From a virus, in IMG/VR virus record IMGVR_UViG_3300037225_000932, positions 64,001 to 128,000 of that record: DNA of 64,000 nucleotides, one strand, 5' to 3'. Every line of letters begins with the position of its first letter. Position 1 is the stretch's first letter. Of the stretch, positions 10,690 through 62,206 are shown in pieces. Made by a program: the position numbers and the translations under genes. A model generated the notes under the pieces. The model worked only from the letters and a program-made list of their open reading frames with translations. It was not told where the DNA came from and ran no database searches.

Positions 10690-13600
10690 ATGACCATTAA
10701 GTTTTCTGTGCCTGATAAAAATTCTAAAAATAGTATGGTATCTTCTTCTGGAAGCTATCAAACTAAAAATACAAATAATAAATATACAAAGAGTCAGGTA
10801 GCAAGAACACCTTTAACAAAGAACGCTCAATGGGCAGGATCTGGTGCTAATGTTACTTTCACTCAACCAATGTTCTTTTCTCCATTACATACGCCACAGA
10901 ACTGGCAAATTGCTAGCAAAAGAAGAGAGGAATATCAGTGGAGTTTTGTAGCTACAAACTCCTGTTTTGTAACACTTTCTGATTTTTCTCAAAGATCAAT
11001 AAGTGAGATTTATGATACTTTTTCGGTTAAAAACAAAGATATTGGAAAGGTTGAAAATCTTTCTATATTAAATGGAGACGGAGAGATATCTTATCCGGAT
11101 TTAGTTTCTAAACATTATGTAGAAAAAAAAGTAAATAAGATAAAAATAGGGGGGACAATAGAACTTATAGAAATTACAAATGATCATAAATGTATTGTGA
11201 TAAAAAGAGAAGACATAAAATGTTCTAAATCTATTTGGAAATGTAAAATATGTGTAAGTAATAAATCTTCATCTACTTGTGAAAAATTTAAGTGCGCAAA
11301 AAATAAAAATATAGAATATAATATATCTAGTATAAATGCCTCAGAAGTGAAAAAAGGAGACTTTTTTCTTGTTCCGTTTAATACAGAAGTTAAATCAAGT
11401 ATAATAAAAACAAAAGAGGAAGCAAGATACGCTGGACATCTAGCTTCTGATGGATGGGTATGTGATGGAAATAATCCATCCTCATATTTTACTAGTAGTA
11501 TTTGTATGCACGTAGACGAAGAGAAATATGTTTTACCTTCAGTAGAATATGTATTTAGTAAATTTAATATTAGCGCAAATAAGCATACAAAAAAATCTAA
11601 TAAAGTAGAGACCATAGGAAGCTCTAATAAAAAATTATTTCAACATTCTCATAGTCTTGTTCTTGGAAAAGGTAAAGATAAAAAGTTTACAGATCAAGTT
11701 GTATATTTAGATAATAATCTTCAAAAAGAAGTTTTAGGAGCATACATACAATCTGATGGTTCTTGGAACAAAAAAAATCAATGTATAGAAATAACTACTT
11801 ATTCTCCACATTTAGCTAATCAATTGCTTGTTATGTTTTATCGTTGTGGTATATTAGCCAGGGGTAATAAACAAAAATTAAGTAAATCAGCTTTTAGGTC
11901 AGAAAATAAATATAGATATATTATTAATGTGTCTTCTTCTGAATGTGAAAAAATAAAAGAATATGTTCCTGGAAAATGTTTTGGAATTAAAACTAAAAAA
12001 AACAGACATAGTAAAAGATTTTTCTGGAAAAACTATGTAGTTTCTCCTGTTGTAAGTAACGAAAGTTATGATTATTCTGGAGACGTTTATGATATAAGAG
12101 TTCCAGAAAAATTTACAGTTATAGTAAATAGTATAGCTATAAATCAATGTCGCTTCTATTACACTAACGAACCAAAGGTAGCAGCCGGTATAGATTTCTA
12201 TGCGCAATTTTGTATGAACGGATTTAAGCTTGAATGTTCAGATAAAAAAACATTAAAGTTTTATGAAAAAGTAGTTAAAGATTTACAACTCAATCATTGG
12301 TGTAAACATATAAGTCATGAATATTATATGTTAGGAGACGTTTTTCCTTTCACGAGTATAAGTTGTCCTCATTGTGGAGGAAAATCAATAAAACCTGATG
12401 GTTCACACTGCAATCACCCAGGAGGAACAATTGGACGTATTGTTTTAATGAATCCTGATTGGATTGAAGTAGAAAAAAATGTTTTAGCATCTGAACCTGT
12501 TTTTACTTTAGTTCCAGATGAAGAACTTAAAATGATTGTTTCGAGAAAACAGCCTAGACAAATATATGATAGATTGCCAAAAGATTTTATCAATATGATA
12601 GCTAGTGGACAGCCTATAATATTATCAAATAAATGTATAAGTCACATAAAACATACAGATAGTTCATATGGTAAATATGGTTCTTCTATATTAAGAAGAC
12701 TTTTTACTGTATTAGCATATAAGACAAAACTAATGACTGCGAACTGGATTATAGCAGAAAGACTTATTCTTCCAGTAAGAGTTATAAAAATAGGAGATAA
12801 AGATCGTCCTGCCGGTCCAGAAGATATTGCTGATGTTTCAAATCAAATATCTGCTGTAGTTAATGATCCAAATCTGACTATAGTTACCCATCATGCTTTT
12901 GATTATGAATATTACGGAGCAACGGGTAAGATACATAATATTACTGCTGAAATAGAACAAATAGGTAAAGAGATACTTGATGGATTGATGTTAAATCAAG
13001 CACTTTTGAACGGGGAAGCTTCTTGTCACAGTGAAGACACTTTAACATTAACAGATAGTGGATTTAAGAAATATGATCAAATAACAGAAAAAGATAAAAT
13101 AGCCTGTTATAATCCAAAGACTAATAAAATAGAATATCATCATTATAAAAATAAATATGTTTATGATTATAATAATAAAATGGTTCATTTTAAGAATAAT
13201 ATGATGGATATTCTGGTTACTCCAAATCATAGAATGTGGACCAGAAAAAGAGATAAATGTAATTTTGAATTTATTAATGCTTCAGATGTTGCCAGAAGAT
13301 CTTATTTTCTTAATAGAGTAGATGGATTTGATGGAGATTATATTAAAAATATAACTATTGGATCTGAAACCTATTCTATCTATGATTTTTGCCAAATGAT
13401 TGGTTGGTATATATCAGAAGGAACAACTTCAGAAGAAAAGAGAAAAAATAGAACTAGAAAAATAACCACATTAAACATACATCAGTCTAAAAATGGATAT
13501 AGAGAAGAAATAAATAGTTTATTTAACACAATGTTTAAGACGCACTATGAGACAGAAAAAGCTATATGTGTTTATAAACCAGATTTAGCTAAATGGCTAA

Positions 13601-15246
13601 AAGAAAATTGTGGAGGACATTCTTATGTGAAACAAATTCCTACATGGATAAAAAATCTAGATTCATCTTGTCTACAGGTCTTATTAGACGCTTATGTTCA
13701 TGGAGACGGAAGTTATTGTAATAAAGATAAATTTGGTAAAAAATCAGAAAAACATATAGTTATTTATACTTCAAGCGATCAATTAGCAAATGATATAGAA
13801 GAGATTTCTTTTAAGTGTGGATATTCTATTATAAGAAATATTAGAACAAAAGAACAATGCTCTAAAGGAAGATTTAATAAAAATGGATATGAATTTATAA
13901 CTAAAAAAGATCAACATATAATTTATCTTTCTAAAGGCAGAAAGGGTAAAGAAGTAATATTAGATTCTAGAGATAAGAGATATTACAAAAAAGAAATTCA
14001 ATCTATAGATTATTCTGGTAAGGTTTATTGTTTTACAGTTCCTTTTGGATTATTTGTCACCAAAAGAAATGATAAAATTACTATTCAAGGAAACTCATAC
14101 GCTAGTGCGCAAGTCGGTGTTGAAACTCTTATTAGAAGATTAGAGAGTTGGAGATCTACTTTAGCTGAATGGGTAGAAAATCACATATTTTTACCTATTG
14201 CTATGATGCAGGGTTTTATAGATGAGAGAGAAAGCAAAGAAATGGGAGAAGCAGTTTATATTTATCCAAAACTTAAATGGAATGATTTAAACCTAAGAGA
14301 CAAAACTAATCATCTTCAATTTCTCTCTCAGCTTCAAGATAAGCAGCTTATTAGTGTTCAAAAATTATTAGAAGAAGTAGATATAGATTATGATCAAGAA
14401 GTAGAAAGAATGAGAGAAGAACAGATGCTAGTTGGACCAAAAGGTCAAGCGGGCGGGGCTGGTGGAATGGGAGGTATGGGTGGAATGGGTGGAGCTCCTA
14501 TGGGGGGAGGTGGAGGAGGAATGCCTCCATTAGACTTAGGTGGAGGAATGGGAGGTGGAGGTGGGGTTCCTGGAAGTCCAGCAGGTGGGCCTATGGGTGG
14601 AATCCCTGGTGGAGACATGGGCGGATCTCCCGGTGGGGCTCCGGGAAGTCCAATGGGCGGATCTCCCGGTGGAGCAGTAGCAGAATCTAATTTGCCCAAT
14701 TTTAAGATAGGGCGAAAAGGATCTGGCAGAAAAACACTAAATGAACAGATGAAAGCTCCTCCTCCTAGAATGATCAAGCTTACCAAATTAGAACAAAAAA
14801 TGTATAAAATACTTGAGGGAATAAATATACCTAATCAATTATTTGGACAGTATAATGTTTTTGTTCCTGGAAATCCTCAACCTTTTGTTATTGATTTCGC
14901 TTATCCTTCTTACGGAGTAGGAGTAGAAGCAGATGGAGCAGCTTGGCATGAAAATATAGAATCTAAGATAAGAGATCAACAAAGGGATCAGAAGTTAGCT
15001 AATGTTGGTTGGAGAATTTTAAGATTTAAAGAAGATGCTATTTTACAAAAATCAGACGAAATAAAGAAAATAGTATTACAACAAATCCAAGAAGCTTTTA
15101 ACGAAAAGAAAAATAAAAAAGCACAAGAAATTCAATTTTTATTAAAAGAAGCTGGATCTTTTGAGAATAAGGAGGAAAAGTTTATTTATAACAAAATAGA
15201 TATAGAAGGAGATCTTGGCTTTATCTATTTAATAGGTACAGAATAA
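10690..15246 (+). CDS. portal protein with two inteins and C-terminal DUF559/Vsr-like nuclease domain
   Basis: RFYYTNEPKVAAGIDFY, YGSSILRRLF portal-like exteins; position upstream of protease and capsid genes; IDFA..GVEADG..WH..RDQ.RD..L...GW.ILRF at the C-terminus. Confidence 0.8.
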   Translation: MTIKFSVPDKNSKNSMVSSSGSYQTKNTNNKYTKSQVARTPLTKNAQWAGSGANVTFTQPMFFSPLHTPQNWQIASKRREEYQWSFVATNSCFVTLSDFSQRSISEIYDTFSVKNKDIGKVENLSILNGDGEISYPDLVSKHYVEKKVNKIKIGGTIELIEITNDHKCIVIKREDIKCSKSIWKCKICVSNKSSSTCEKFKCAKNKNIEYNISSINASEVKKGDFFLVPFNTEVKSSIIKTKEEARYAGHLASDGWVCDGNNPSSYFTSSICMHVDEEKYVLPSVEYVFSKFNISANKHTKKSNKVETIGSSNKKLFQHSHSLVLGKGKDKKFTDQVVYLDNNLQKEVLGAYIQSDGSWNKKNQCIEITTYSPHLANQLLVMFYRCGILARGNKQKLSKSAFRSENKYRYIINVSSSECEKIKEYVPGKCFGIKTKKNRHSKRFFWKNYVVSPVVSNESYDYSGDVYDIRVPEKFTVIVNSIAINQCRFYYTNEPKVAAGIDFYAQFCMNGFKLECSDKKTLKFYEKVVKDLQLNHWCKHISHEYYMLGDVFPFTSISCPHCGGKSIKPDGSHCNHPGGTIGRIVLMNPDWIEVEKNVLASEPVFTLVPDEELKMIVSRKQPRQIYDRLPKDFINMIASGQPIILSNKCISHIKHTDSSYGKYGSSILRRLFTVLAYKTKLMTANWIIAERLILPVRVIKIGDKDRPAGPEDIADVSNQISAVVNDPNLTIVTHHAFDYEYYGATGKIHNITAEIEQIGKEILDGLMLNQALLNGEASCHSEDTLTLTDSGFKKYDQITEKDKIACYNPKTNKIEYHHYKNKYVYDYNNKMVHFKNNMMDILVTPNHRMWTRKRDKCNFEFINASDVARRSYFLNRVDGFDGDYIKNITIGSETYSIYDFCQMIGWYISEGTTSEEKRKNRTRKITTLNIHQSKNGYREEINSLFNTMFKTHYETEKAICVYKPDLAKWLKENCGGHSYVKQIPTWIKNLDSSCLQVLLDAYVHGDGSYCNKDKFGKKSEKHIVIYTSSDQLANDIEEISFKCGYSIIRNIRTKEQCSKGRFNKNGYEFITKKDQHIIYLSKGRKGKEVILDSRDKRYYKKEIQSIDYSGKVYCFTVPFGLFVTKRNDKITIQGNSYASAQVGVETLIRRLESWRSTLAEWVENHIFLPIAMMQGFIDERESKEMGEAVYIYPKLKWNDLNLRDKTNHLQFLSQLQDKQLISVQKLLEEVDIDYDQEVERMREEQMLVGPKGQAGGAGGMGGMGGMGGAPMGGGGGGMPPLDLGGGMGGGGGVPGSPAGGPMGGIPGGDMGGSPGGAPGSPMGGSPGGAVAESNLPNFKIGRKGSGRKTLNEQMKAPPPRMIKLTKLEQKMYKILEGINIPNQLFGQYNVFVPGNPQPFVIDFAYPSYGVGVEADGAAWHENIESKIRDQQRDQKLANVGWRILRFKEDAILQKSDEIKKIVLQQIQEAFNEKKNKKAQEIQFLLKEAGSFENKEEKFIYNKIDIEGDLGFIYLIGTE
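10942..12147 (+). mobile_element. intein 1 (402 aa) with LAGLIDADG homing endonuclease
   Basis: Ser1, block B EITNDH, AGHLASDG and LGAYIQSDG, block F VYDIRV, ends INQ/C. Confidence 0.85.
13024..14094 (+). mobile_element. intein 2 (357 aa) with LAGLIDADG homing endonuclease
   Basis: CHSEDT start, LVTPNH, IGWYISEG and LDAYVHGDG, VYCFTV, ends QGN/S. Confidence 0.9.
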
Positions 15247-58901: not shown

Positions 58902-59384
58902 TTACCATTTCGCTCCCATCTCTTTAGCCTCATCAAAAGCATTCCAGAACTTAAACTCTTTATTAGTAAGAATGCTAATGGCTTTCTCAGCATCCCTCTC
59001 AGTAAATCCAACATCCTTATTAGTTTGGACAAAATGCCTTAAAACTAAATCTTTCTTAATAGTATCATCCTTGGGATTAAAATCATCTAAAGGCCAATCA
59101 TCAAGAACAACCCAGTTCTCAGGTTTATTTTGCTCAACCCAAAACAAAATCTCATCTAACCGATTACCGTTATCAGAAGTTATTCCAACAAAAGGAATAT
59201 CAAAAACCTTAAAAACATCTTTTACCTGTTGAAGTGCGTTTGGCAGTGTTCGCCAAGTTGAAGAAAGAACTACAGAAGCATTCCCCTTTGAACAAACATT
59301 TTTAAGTAATCCTAAACGAATAGGATCAAGAGTTTGCCCATCTAGGCATAATACTCCATCAATGTCACAAAATATAACATTCAT
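58902..59384 (-). CDS. HAD phosphatase, Swiss-Army-Knife RNA-repair type (HAD_SAK_2-like), leaderless
   Basis: IFCDIDGVL, VVLSSTWR, WVVLDD. Confidence 0.85.
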   Translation of the reverse strand: MNVIFCDIDGVLCLDGQTLDPIRLGLLKNVCSKGNASVVLSSTWRTLPNALQQVKDVFKVFDIPFVGITSDNGNRLDEILFWVEQNKPENWVVLDDWPLDDFNPKDDTIKKDLVLRHFVQTNKDVGFTERDAEKAISILTNKEFKFWNAFDEAKEMGAKW

Positions 59385-59425
59385 ATTCATTTAGAACTGT
59401 ATTTAATTTTTCAGGGTAAATGAAT

Positions 59426-61476: not shown

Positions 61477-61715
61477 CGTCGTATCCTTTCCTAAAAGGGG
61501 TTTATCGTTACACCCTTTTAGAACTTTAGCCCCACTTTTCAGGGAGATTTTTTTTCGCGCAAAAAAAAATACCCTCAAAGACAACAGTGGTGGTGTCGTC
61601 CTCAAGAGTATTATTGTTTTTTTAATATAATAAATTGCTAACGCAATTTATTATATTAAACTTTTTATGTTTTGTCAATATACTTTGTTCTATTTTGTTA
61701 AAAATAGTTTAAGTT

Positions 61716-62123
61716 TTACCAATTGCTACTATTTTCAACAAACTCTTTCGCTTCAATTAAACTAAGATTTGTCCAATAACGAAGAACCTTAATGGCCTCA
61801 ACTTGAACTTGTCGATTTTGGTTTCGTAAACTACAAATTGACTGAAAAGCCTTCAAGGGAATATTATACCAAGTATTTTGAGAAATAACCGTAACAACCG
61901 GAACCCCATCCTTTATACTCACATTATGACCATGAAAAACAGTAGGAACTTCATTCCGTTTCTTCTCTTCAGCAAGCTTCTCCTGTAAATCATTACTTAA
62001 AGCCTTAATCTCTTCCTGATAAGCCTCTTCAAGAATTCTTAAAGCAGTTTTCTTATACTTATTCTCAAGAACACTTGAAACAATAACAACACGACACATT
62101 TCTTTCTTGTTCTCAATATCCAT
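61716..62123 (-). CDS. protein with ribosomal bL12 C-terminal-domain-like motif
   Basis: QVEAIKVLRYWTNLSLIEAKEFVENS vs bL12 KxxxIKxVRxxTGLGLKEAKxxVE. Confidence 0.7.
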   Translation of the reverse strand: MDIENKKEMCRVVIVSSVLENKYKKTALRILEEAYQEEIKALSNDLQEKLAEEKKRNEVPTVFHGHNVSIKDGVPVVTVISQNTWYNIPLKAFQSICSLRNQNRQVQVEAIKVLRYWTNLSLIEAKEFVENSSNW

Positions 62124-62206
62124 CTTGCCTTTTCCTTTATGTTATACTCTTAGAACTTTAGTTCCCACTTTTCAGGGAGATTTTTTTTCGCGCAAAAAAA
62201 AATAGT

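What the first reader, a model, noticed from the sequence alone, without database searches (positions are those of the whole stretch)
61716..62123. bL12-CTD-like protein in the same regulon as the GTPase-centre RNA mimic
Seen: C-terminal QVEAIKVLRYWTNLSLIEAKEFVEN under an array promoter. Knowledge: the bL12 CTD recruits EF-G, EF-Tu, IF2 and RF3 to the stalk next to uL11 and H42-44, and bL12-like domains are known in phages. Inference: together with the 23S mimic, the tRNA-like RNA and the leaderless mRNAs, this suggests a coordinated toolkit aimed at the ribosomal stalk and translation factors.
Basis: partly seen in the sequence, partly recalled or inferred. Interest (0 to 1): 0.7.

Follow-up and report, generated by a model that had tools for sequence, protein, structure and literature searches.

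The report
Phage protein with bL12 factor-docking hairpin
An uncultured 173-kb phage has a small early gene whose protein ends in a copy of the two-helix hairpin that ribosomal stalk protein bL12 uses to catch translation factors. The rest of bL12 is absent, similar phage genes are already known, and I found no specific tie to the phage's ribosomal-RNA mimic.

Summary
It sits behind one of 39 copies of the phage promoter motif CCCYGA-N13-15-GTTCTAA.

Only residues 103-132 resemble bL12. Pfam Ribosomal_L12 gives E 3.7e-5 and 24.4 bits (cut-off 25.9), covering profile positions 9-37 of 67, which are helices alpha4-alpha5. The protein stops three residues later. It has no bL12 N-terminal domain and no strand-helix-strand second half, and fold searches found no bL12/ClpS fold.

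The protein is otherwise an orphan. The nearest sequences are bacterial proteins built of tandem free-standing copies of the same module. The models show a long N-terminal helix, predicted to form a parallel homodimer, followed by a small new domain that carries the hairpin.

Best reading (0.38): a two-headed, off-ribosome binder of EF-Tu or other translational GTPases. Binding is untested.

The "toolkit" link to the GTPase-centre RNA mimic is not supported. L12-like modules occur about once per megabase in phages with and without the RNA, 18 of 20 near-complete RNA-bearing phages have none, and the phage encodes no uL10 or uL11.

Earlier notes in this scan describe hairpin-only phage proteins in other genomes. 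Verdict: a new variant of a known kind, of modest interest.

The parts
62149..62177 (-). Phage array promoter motif, CCCTGA-N15-GTTCTAAG on the coding strand. It is an off-consensus copy: longest spacer, last base G.
   Evidence: Pattern search: 39 copies in the window against 0.01 expected. Repeat families D1-D9.
62164..62204 (-). 41-nt segment (T/A-tract palindrome plus the CCCTGA half of the promoter) that is 100% identical to 61531-61571 upstream of the next module
   Evidence: Repeat family D7, two exact copies. The 20-mer occurs twice against 0 expected.
62124..62148 (-). Short 5' leader with SD-like AAAGGAAAAGG (62128-62138). This gene is not one of the leaderless ones.
   Evidence: Read from the sequence
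61716..62123 (-). CDS of the 135-aa orphan protein (P0001), stop codon included
   Evidence: The exact protein is on record from 6 contigs. AF2 single-sequence model has pLDDT 79.
61953..62117 (-). Residues 3-57: one long amphipathic helix, predicted to form a parallel in-register homodimeric coiled coil
   Evidence: AF2 model. Structure matches only to coiled coils, Z about 6.5. Homodimer prediction: ipSAE 0.48 against a best control of 0.02, with contacts 35:35, 39:39, 42:42, 46:46, 50:50 and 53:53.
61824..61937 (-). Residues 63-100: three-stranded beta-meander plus one helix, with no recognisable relative
   Evidence: Domain model has pLDDT 86.5 and pTM 0.72. Foldseek found nothing at E<=0.001 and the best VIA Z was 5.0.
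61728..61817 (-). [quoted passage not shown] The protein ends 3 residues later.
   Evidence: PF00542 positions 9-37 of 67, E 3.7e-5. TIGR00855 positions 69-95 and NF005269 positions 65-92. The only PDB sequence hit for the last 50 aa is T. maritima L7/L12 1dd3, residues 68-95. HMM of free-standing modules scores 26.5 bits.
61558..61612 (-). Strong intrinsic terminator (19-bp stem plus U9) that closes the module
   Evidence: Terminator scan. Fold -26.5 kcal/mol, z -5.1.

Best explanation
This is a genuine early or middle gene of an uncultured 173-kb phage, with its own promoter and terminator. It encodes a 135-residue orphan protein. The N-terminal ~55-residue helix is predicted to pair two chains in a parallel coiled coil. 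The C-terminal ~75 residues fold into a small domain of their own: a beta-meander plus three helices. The last two helices are a copy of the alpha-hairpin shared by bL12 (alpha4-alpha5) and EF-Ts, which is the surface those proteins use to dock on the G domain of EF-Tu (helix D) and, in bL12, on EF-G, IF2, RF3 and EF4. The protein lacks the bL12 N-terminal domain, so it cannot sit on uL10. It also lacks beta2-alpha6-beta3, so it cannot make the bL12-type contact with uL11. I therefore propose that it works off the ribosome as a two-headed hairpin. It would bind EF-Tu or another translational GTPase in competition with the stalk and/or EF-Ts, and so retune or tap host translation early in infection. 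Shown: the gene, the motif, its restriction to the hairpin, and the absence of the other bL12 parts. Predicted: the fold and the homodimer. Inferred only: GTPase binding and its effect.
For: Hairpin identity: PF00542 scores E 3.7e-5 on profile positions 9-37 only, and this is the single hit in the genome. Aligned on E. coli bL12 (sequence quoted from memory, my alignment), positions 66-70 read VEAIK against VAVIK and positions 80-85 read LIEAKE against LKEAKD. R73, T76 and L78 are also kept. Those two stretches are where EF-G and EF4 shift the NMR peaks of the L12 CTD (PMC3505967). EF-Tu helix D is reported to bind the L7/L12 C-terminal domain (PMC5770553), and the Kothe et al. 2004 title cited there names helices 4 and 5. 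[quoted passage not shown] It also occurs free-standing in tandem in bacterial proteins. Homodimer prediction: ipSAE 0.48 against a best control of 0.02. That mark was reached by 21 of 30 proteins solved as pairs of one chain and by 0 of 23 solved as single chains. The runs agree in at least 98% of contacts and partner pLDDT is at least 79. Apart from V113, Y116 and W117, no hairpin residue is named in the interface. [quoted passage not shown] I found four further hairpin-only or coiled-coil-plus-hairpin phage proteins.
Against: No binding data exist. bL12-factor contacts are weak (Kd 0.1-0.4 mM), so a decoy would need avidity or an evolved tighter fit. Five turn and contact positions differ from bL12: G74Y, A75W, G77N, G79S and K81I. 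Y116 and W117 lie in the predicted dimer interface. The protein has no divergent homologues, so conservation and selection cannot be assessed. The function of the free-standing modules in bacteria is unknown, so the hairpin may serve other partners. The host is unknown. The structure and dimer are single-sequence predictions.
Confidence: 0.38

Rival explanations
1. The hairpin is a generic small helical module used here for a partner that has nothing to do with translation, such as another phage early protein or a host target. Its likeness to bL12 would reflect common descent of the fragment, not a shared function.
For: The same module occurs in membrane-anchored tandem-repeat bacterial proteins, in NF005269 (PRK06771) and in DUF6793, all of unknown function. 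It is also reported as an accessory domain on one cyanobacterial orthocaspase (PMC8283722). P0001 scores slightly better against NF005269 (18.8 bits) than against TIGR00855 L12 (16.7 bits). The glycines of the bL12 turn are replaced.
Against: The residues retained are those of the two bL12 stretches that contact factors. The only characterised carriers of the fragment, bL12 and EF-Ts, both bind EF-Tu.
Confidence: 0.33
2. One reading: the protein cooperates with the phage's GTPase-centre RNA mimic, with or without host uL11, in an off-ribosome particle that captures or activates translational GTPases.
For: Both genes carry the array promoter and lie 5.2 kb apart on the same strand. In one unrelated phage (G025/G026) an independent coiled-coil-plus-hairpin protein lies 3.2 kb from its RNA mimic. 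On the ribosome, the bL12 CTD and the uL11/H43-44 region act together.
Against: Co-occurrence is at background: about 1 module per Mb both with the RNA (6 of 40 records, 6.05 Mb) and without it (3 of 49 records, 3.26 Mb). Only 2 of 20 near-complete RNA-bearing phages have a module. In three other lineages the two genes lie 43-107 kb apart. The alpha6/K95 region that contacts uL11 is absent. The phage has no uL10 or uL11. Thirty-nine modules share the promoter.
Confidence: 0.07
3. It replaces bL12 on the host ribosomal stalk, as proposed for full-length viral ribosomal proteins.
For: A Salmonella phage bL12-domain protein was detected in ribosome fractions by mass spectrometry (PMC6375957).
Against: No bL12 N-terminal (uL10-binding) domain is detected at E<=10. 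The N-terminus is a single long helix. In the same paper the tagged viral bL12 could not be purified with ribosomes.
Confidence: 0.03
4. The similarity is a chance or decaying remnant in a fast-evolving orphan gene and has no role of its own.
For: The score is below Pfam's gathering threshold (24.4 against 25.9 bits). The match is only 30 residues. There are no homologues to show conservation.
Against: E 3.7e-5 against Pfam and 8.7e-6 in the genome scan. The only hits in 1.84 billion proteins carry the same module. The hairpin is modelled confidently inside a compact domain with pLDDT 86.5.
Confidence: 0.12

Closest known systems
Virus-encoded bL12-domain proteins (Mizuno et al. 2019, Nat Commun 10:752, PMC6375957)
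   Same: A phage gene carrying bL12 C-terminal-type sequence inside an otherwise unrelated protein. The context varies from phage to phage and acquisition looks independent. The elongation-factor-contact residues are kept.
   Different: Those proteins are described as carrying the bL12 domain with both the uL11 and the EF contact residues. Here only the alpha4-alpha5 hairpin (30 residues) is present, at the extreme C-terminus of a predicted coiled-coil dimer, and the uL11-contact half is missing.
Bacterial ribosomal protein bL12 (L7/L12, rplL; PF16320 + PF00542, TIGR00855; PDB 1ctf, 1dd3)
   Same: The alpha4-turn-alpha5 sequence: about 12 of 25 residues identical to E. coli, including V66, I69, K70, R73, T76, L78, L80, E82, A83, K84, V87 and E88 (E. 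coli sequence quoted from memory). The protein is also predicted to be dimeric.
   Different: No N-terminal domain, no hinge, and no beta1 or beta2-alpha6-beta3. Dimerisation would be by a parallel coiled coil. Below the family cut-offs: 24.4 against 25.9 bits for PF00542, and 16.7 against 84.4 bits for TIGR00855.
EF-Tu-binding alpha-hairpin shared by EF-Ts and L7/12 (Wieden et al. 2001; fragment 24 of Alva, Soding and Lupas 2015, PMC4739770)
   Same: The same roughly 25-residue helix-turn-helix fragment, embedded in a fold that is neither bL12 nor required to be.
   Different: No detectable EF-Ts similarity beyond the fragment. EF-Tu binding is untested.
Free-standing L12-like modules of bacterial proteins (tandem repeats in P0003-P0005; NCBIfam NF005269/PRK06771; Pfam DUF6793)
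   Same: These are the best sequence relatives. Each of the three repeats of P0004 aligns to residues 80/86/96-131 (BLASTP E 2e-6 to 2e-5), including the preceding helix and the R-x-W-T signature.
   Different: Those proteins hold three or four tandem copies, two of them behind an N-terminal hydrophobic (apparent membrane) segment. Here there is a single copy after a coiled coil and a beta-meander. The score is far below the NF005269 cut-off (18.8 against 90 bits).

Membership tests
Ribosomal protein bL12 (L7/L12) | N-terminal dimerisation and uL10-binding domain (PF16320) | tested here: not met
   No such Pfam hit at E<=10. Residues 3-57 are one long helix.
Ribosomal protein bL12 (L7/L12) | Complete collinear C-terminal domain, PF00542 positions 1-67 (beta1-alpha4-alpha5-beta2-alpha6-beta3), above the gathering score | tested here: not met
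   Only positions 9-37 match, at 24.4 bits against a cut-off of 25.9. The protein ends 3 residues after the match. The six-frame scan finds nothing further downstream.
Ribosomal protein bL12 (L7/L12) | Conserved factor-contact residues of alpha4 (66-70, R73) and alpha5 (80-85) | tested here: met
   VEAIK, R115 and LIEAKE align to VAVIK, R73 and LKEAKD (contact regions from PMC3505967; E. coli residues quoted from memory).
bL12-CTD / ClpS-like alpha/beta fold | Three-stranded sheet with helices in the bL12/ClpS topology, by structure comparison | tested here: inconclusive
   The domain model (pLDDT 86.5) gave no Foldseek hit at E<=0.001. No bL12 or ClpS chain was among the top 50 VIA matches (best Z 5.0). 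The element order beta-beta-beta-alpha-alpha-alpha differs from beta-alpha-alpha-beta-alpha-beta.
Virus-encoded bL12-domain proteins (Mizuno 2019) | A phage-encoded protein with a PF00542-type segment that keeps the EF-contact residues | tested here: met
   viral record; paper.
Virus-encoded bL12-domain proteins (Mizuno 2019) | Residues for the uL11 contact (the alpha4/alpha6 cleft and K95 region) | tested here: not met
   The sequence ends before beta2 and alpha6. The contact is described in PMC3505967.
EF-Tu-binding alpha-hairpin (EF-Ts / L7/12 fragment) | The sequence fragment itself | tested here: met
   fragment defined in PMC4739770.
EF-Tu-binding alpha-hairpin (EF-Ts / L7/12 fragment) | Binding to EF-Tu helix D | not testable with these tools
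This needs a pull-down, NMR or ITC.
Free-standing L12-like module proteins (NF005269/PRK06771, DUF6793, tandem repeats) | A module of about 43 residues: one helix followed by the hairpin | tested here: inconclusive
   phmmer E 6e-4 to 8e-4. BLASTP E 2e-6 over residues 80-131. But NF005269 scores 18.8 against 90 bits, there is no DUF6793 hit, and my module HMM aligns only positions 18-40.

The most novel reading that the evidence does not exclude
The dimeric hairpin protein and the GTPase-centre RNA mimic (with host uL11) assemble into an off-ribosome 'mini GTPase-associated centre'. This particle would capture EF-Tu or EF-G, or trigger their GTP hydrolysis, away from the ribosome, giving the phage direct control over host elongation.
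Probability: 0.06. Interest if true: 0.85.

Novelty: new variant of a known kind. Interest (0 to 1): 0.33.

Why it matters
If the hairpin alone is enough to dock on EF-Tu or other translational GTPases, proteins like this one would be natural, minimal, bivalent probes of the stalk-factor interface. They would also add a further route by which phages interfere with host translation. The survey run here also shows that L12-type modules are fairly common in large phages, at about one per megabase. They come in many architectures, including at least four hairpin-only ones, and they do not travel with the widespread GTPase-centre RNA mimic. That limits how the RNA mimic should be interpreted.

Tried and rejected
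Homologue searches for the whole protein found no informative relative:
- Word-seeded search of 5.8 billion proteins: no hit.
- The same search with residues 94-135 only: no hit.
- Exhaustive phmmer of 1.84 billion representatives: only a self-fragment and three module proteins.
- IMG/VR loci: none.
- tblastn against 50,697 phage records: none.
- megablast of 55-64 kb against the phage collection: none.
- PHROGs: nothing.
- PDB sequence search with the whole protein: noise only.

Fold searches:
- With the full model, only coiled coils matched the N-terminal helix.
- With the C-terminal domain model, Foldseek gave nothing at E<=0.001 and the best VIA Z was 5.0, on a piece of DNA polymerase gamma. 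I treat that as a common arrangement.
- A simple circular permutation of the bL12 CTD was considered and rejected on element order.

Other leads:
- ESM Atlas: the nearest cluster (127 aa, 56% of members with PF00542) scored 0.76, which is a lead only. Structure rows were all below TM 0.5.
- G025's coiled-coil-plus-hairpin protein shows no similarity to P0001 outside the hairpin, and no other locus carries the promoter motif. These are independent constructions, not orthologues.
- Rfam and tRNA scans of the window found nothing.
- A literature search for DUF6793 and PRK06771 found nothing.

The six contigs holding the protein, and any expression data, therefore could not be examined. No complex of the protein with EF-Tu or EF-G was predicted, because the single job went to the homodimer.

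Full report
**Observation.** The minus-strand ORF 61716-62123 encodes 135 residues and ends ...QVEAIKVLRYWTNLSLIEAKEFVENSSNW. No competing long ORF overlaps it on the other strand. Upstream on the coding strand lies CCCTGA-N15-GTTCTAAG at 62177-62149. A pattern search finds 39 such motifs between 48.9 and 63.4 kb, all in this orientation, against 0.01 expected by chance (repeat families). This copy is slightly off consensus, with a spacer of 15 rather than 13-14 and a final G.

The 41 nt from 62164 to 62204 are identical to 61531-61571, which head the next module. A 25-nt leader carries AAAGGAAAAGG, so this gene is not one of the leaderless ones. The module closes with a 19-bp hairpin plus U9 at 61612-61558. 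The window belongs to a 173,351-bp IMG/VR virus record, 88% complete by CheckV. It carries portal, protease-like and tail-fibre genes.

**What resembles bL12, and what does not.** Pfam Ribosomal_L12 matches residues 103-132 at E 3.7e-5 and 24.4 bits, just below the gathering score of 25.9. Only profile positions 9-37 of 67 are covered. A six-frame scan of the whole genome finds this site alone. The match corresponds to helices alpha4 and alpha5. The protein stops three residues after it, so beta2-alpha6-beta3 cannot follow. There is no match to beta1 and no bL12 N-terminal domain.

The only PDB sequence hit for the last 50 residues is T. maritima L7/L12 (1dd3) at residues 68-95. Its E of 0.5 is weak on its own but falls in the same register. 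Aligned on E. coli bL12 (sequence quoted from memory), V66, I69, K70, R73, T76, L78, L80, E82, A83, K84, V87 and E88 are kept. G74, A75, G77, G79 and K81 become Y, W, N, S and I. Residues 66-70 and 80-85 are the two regions of the L12 CTD that respond to EF-G and EF4 in NMR titrations, with Kd 0.1-0.4 mM. The uL11 contact instead uses the alpha4/alpha6 cleft and K95 (PMC3505967). So the factor-contact stretches are present and the uL11-contact half is absent.

**Relatives.** The protein is an orphan. Word-seeded searches, IMG/VR and GenBank phages give nothing.

An exhaustive phmmer search of 1.84 billion representatives returns a self-fragment and three proteins at E 6e-4 to 8e-4. These three are bacterial proteins of about 220 residues. 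Each is built of three or four tandem copies of a roughly 43-residue module ending in ...KIEAIKxxRExTGLGLKEAKxxVD. Two of them start with a hydrophobic, apparently membrane-spanning segment. Pfam reads them as three partial PF00542 hits (positions 10-37) plus DUF6793, and NCBIfam reads them as NF005269/PRK06771.

Each repeat of P0004 aligns to P0001 residues 80/86/96-131 at E 2e-6 to 2e-5, including the helix before the hairpin and the R-x-W-T signature. P0001 scores marginally better on NF005269 than on TIGR00855 L12. The hairpin is therefore a mobile, free-standing module and not a fragment peculiar to this gene.

[quoted passage not shown] 2001). EF-Tu helix D is reported to bind the L7/L12 C-terminal domain (PMC5770553), and the Kothe et al. 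2004 title cited there names helices 4 and 5.

**Structure.** The single-sequence AF2 model of the whole protein (pLDDT 79) shows:
- a helix at residues 3-57;
- a low-confidence linker;
- three strands at 64-89;
- helices at 90-98, 104-117 and 122-131.

Residues 61-135 folded alone give a compact domain with pLDDT 86.5 and pTM 0.72. Foldseek against the PDB finds nothing at E<=0.001. VIA-align against 48,161 chains gives a best Z of 5.0, with no bL12 or ClpS chain in the top 50. By the tool's own rules this is inconclusive for the fold. Even so, the element order (beta-beta-beta-alpha-alpha-alpha) is not that of bL12, nor a simple circular permutation of it.

The homodimer prediction passes its controls:
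- ipSAE 0.48 against a best control of 0.02.
- That mark was reached by 21 of 30 proteins solved as pairs of one chain and by 0 of 23 solved as single chains.
- The runs agree in at least 98% of contacts, and partner pLDDT is at least 79.

The interface is a parallel, in-register coiled coil (35:35, 39:39, 42:42, 46:46, 50:50, 53:53). It also includes contacts between the C-terminal domains and V113, Y116 and W117 of the first hairpin helix. No other hairpin residue is named in the interface. This supports self-association but does not prove it.

**Test of the 'toolkit' idea.** The RNA mimic at 56320-56521 does carry GGCTTAGAAGCAGCC and GCGTAATAGCACAC behind its own array promoter. Its 18-nt core occurs in at least 118 IMG/VR contigs. 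In every case it continues into an insert, not into contiguous 23S sequence, so the RNA family is large and phage-borne.

I then scanned the genomes for PF00542 at E<=0.01:
- **Mimic-bearing records:** 6 of 40 (6.05 Mb) have a match, and 2 of the 20 that are at least 90% complete. Two pairs are near-duplicates, leaving four lineages.
- **Control records** (pulled with a tRNA T-arm pattern): 3 of 49 (3.26 Mb) have a match. The 20 largest controls, which include all three with a match, lack the mimic core.

The rate is about one module per megabase in both sets. Spacing between the two genes is 5.2 kb here and 3.2 kb in G025, but 43, 63 and 107 kb in G010, G011 and G017. The phage has no uL10 or uL11 homologue. 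Sharing the array promoter is not specific, since 39 modules do. The samples are small, but nothing indicates a dependency between the protein and the RNA.

**What the survey adds.** The other phage proteins are architecturally diverse:
- a full CTD fused to an unrelated N-terminus (G017);
- CTD-like C-termini (G010/G027, G044);
- a full-length bL12 (G049, a provirus record, possibly host);
- an N-terminal hairpin (G045);
- two independent proteins with an N-terminal helical, apparently coiled-coil region and a C-terminal hairpin (G025/G026, G011).

This matches Mizuno et al. 2019. [quoted passage not shown] G025's protein shares nothing with P0001 outside the hairpin. Notes from this scan describe hairpin-only phage proteins in other genomes. 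I did not test those notes.

**Mechanism.** The protein keeps the factor-contact hairpin, lacks both ribosome-anchoring features, and is predicted to be a dimer. The most economical reading is an off-ribosome, bivalent binder of EF-Tu or another translational GTPase. It would compete with the stalk or with EF-Ts early in infection. I give this 0.38.

The main rival is that the module serves an unrelated partner, as its uncharacterised bacterial carriers might (0.33). Chance or a relic gets 0.12, the RNA-protein toolkit 0.07, and stalk replacement 0.03. Binding, affinity and phenotype are all untested.

**Verdict.** This is a new variant (hairpin-only, predicted coiled-coil dimer, orphan) of a known kind, namely phage proteins carrying bL12 CTD sequence. 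Interest is modest.

Noticed in passing
window 61650-61678 (minus strand): A perfect sigma-70 consensus promoter (TTGACA-N17-TATAAT, 12 of 12) lies in the 3' region of the L12-like gene. It sits about 40 nt upstream of the strong terminator at 61612-61558. It could yield an RNA of roughly 80 nt that contains the AT-rich palindrome at 61626-61657. This is an odd place for a host-type promoter inside a phage-promoter array.
   Followed up: partly
window 61531-61571 and 62164-62204: The two neighbouring modules share an exactly identical 41-nt stretch: a T8-CGCGC-A9 palindrome plus the CCCTGA half of the promoter. This suggests a recent duplication or gene conversion of the module head. Similar TTTTTTGCGCAAAAAA palindromes precede many other array promoters (repeat family D12).
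   Followed up: no
window 58902-59390 (minus strand): One array module encodes a 162-aa protein with a clear HAD_SAK_2 domain (PF18143, E 5e-21), the HAD domain of 'Swiss Army Knife' RNA-repair proteins. It is one of the few array cargos with a family assignment.
   Followed up: no
In every case it is followed by ...TAAAGAGTG-type sequence and an insert, not by contiguous 23S sequence. The GTPase-centre RNA mimic is therefore a very widespread phage RNA family. G010 and L044 carry two copies.
   Followed up: partly
L123:1135-1653 (G025/G026) and L125:994-1665 (G011): Two unrelated phage proteins (173 and 224 aa) repeat the layout seen here: an N-terminal helical, apparently coiled-coil region followed by a C-terminal L12-type hairpin without the rest of the CTD. 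In G025 the gene lies 3.2 kb from that phage's RNA mimic.
   Followed up: partly
L120:1180-1734 (G017) and L245:1261-1626 (G045): G017 has a 185-aa phage protein with a complete bL12 CTD (PF00542 positions 1-67, E 4.8e-18) fused to an unrelated Cys/His-rich N-terminal part. G045 (385 kb) has a 122-aa protein with the hairpin at its N-terminus.
   Followed up: no
window 10690-15246 (plus strand): A 1518-aa ORF whose middle (residues 484-784) matches portal-protein PHROGs. That is unusually long for a portal and suggests a fusion with other domains.
   Followed up: no
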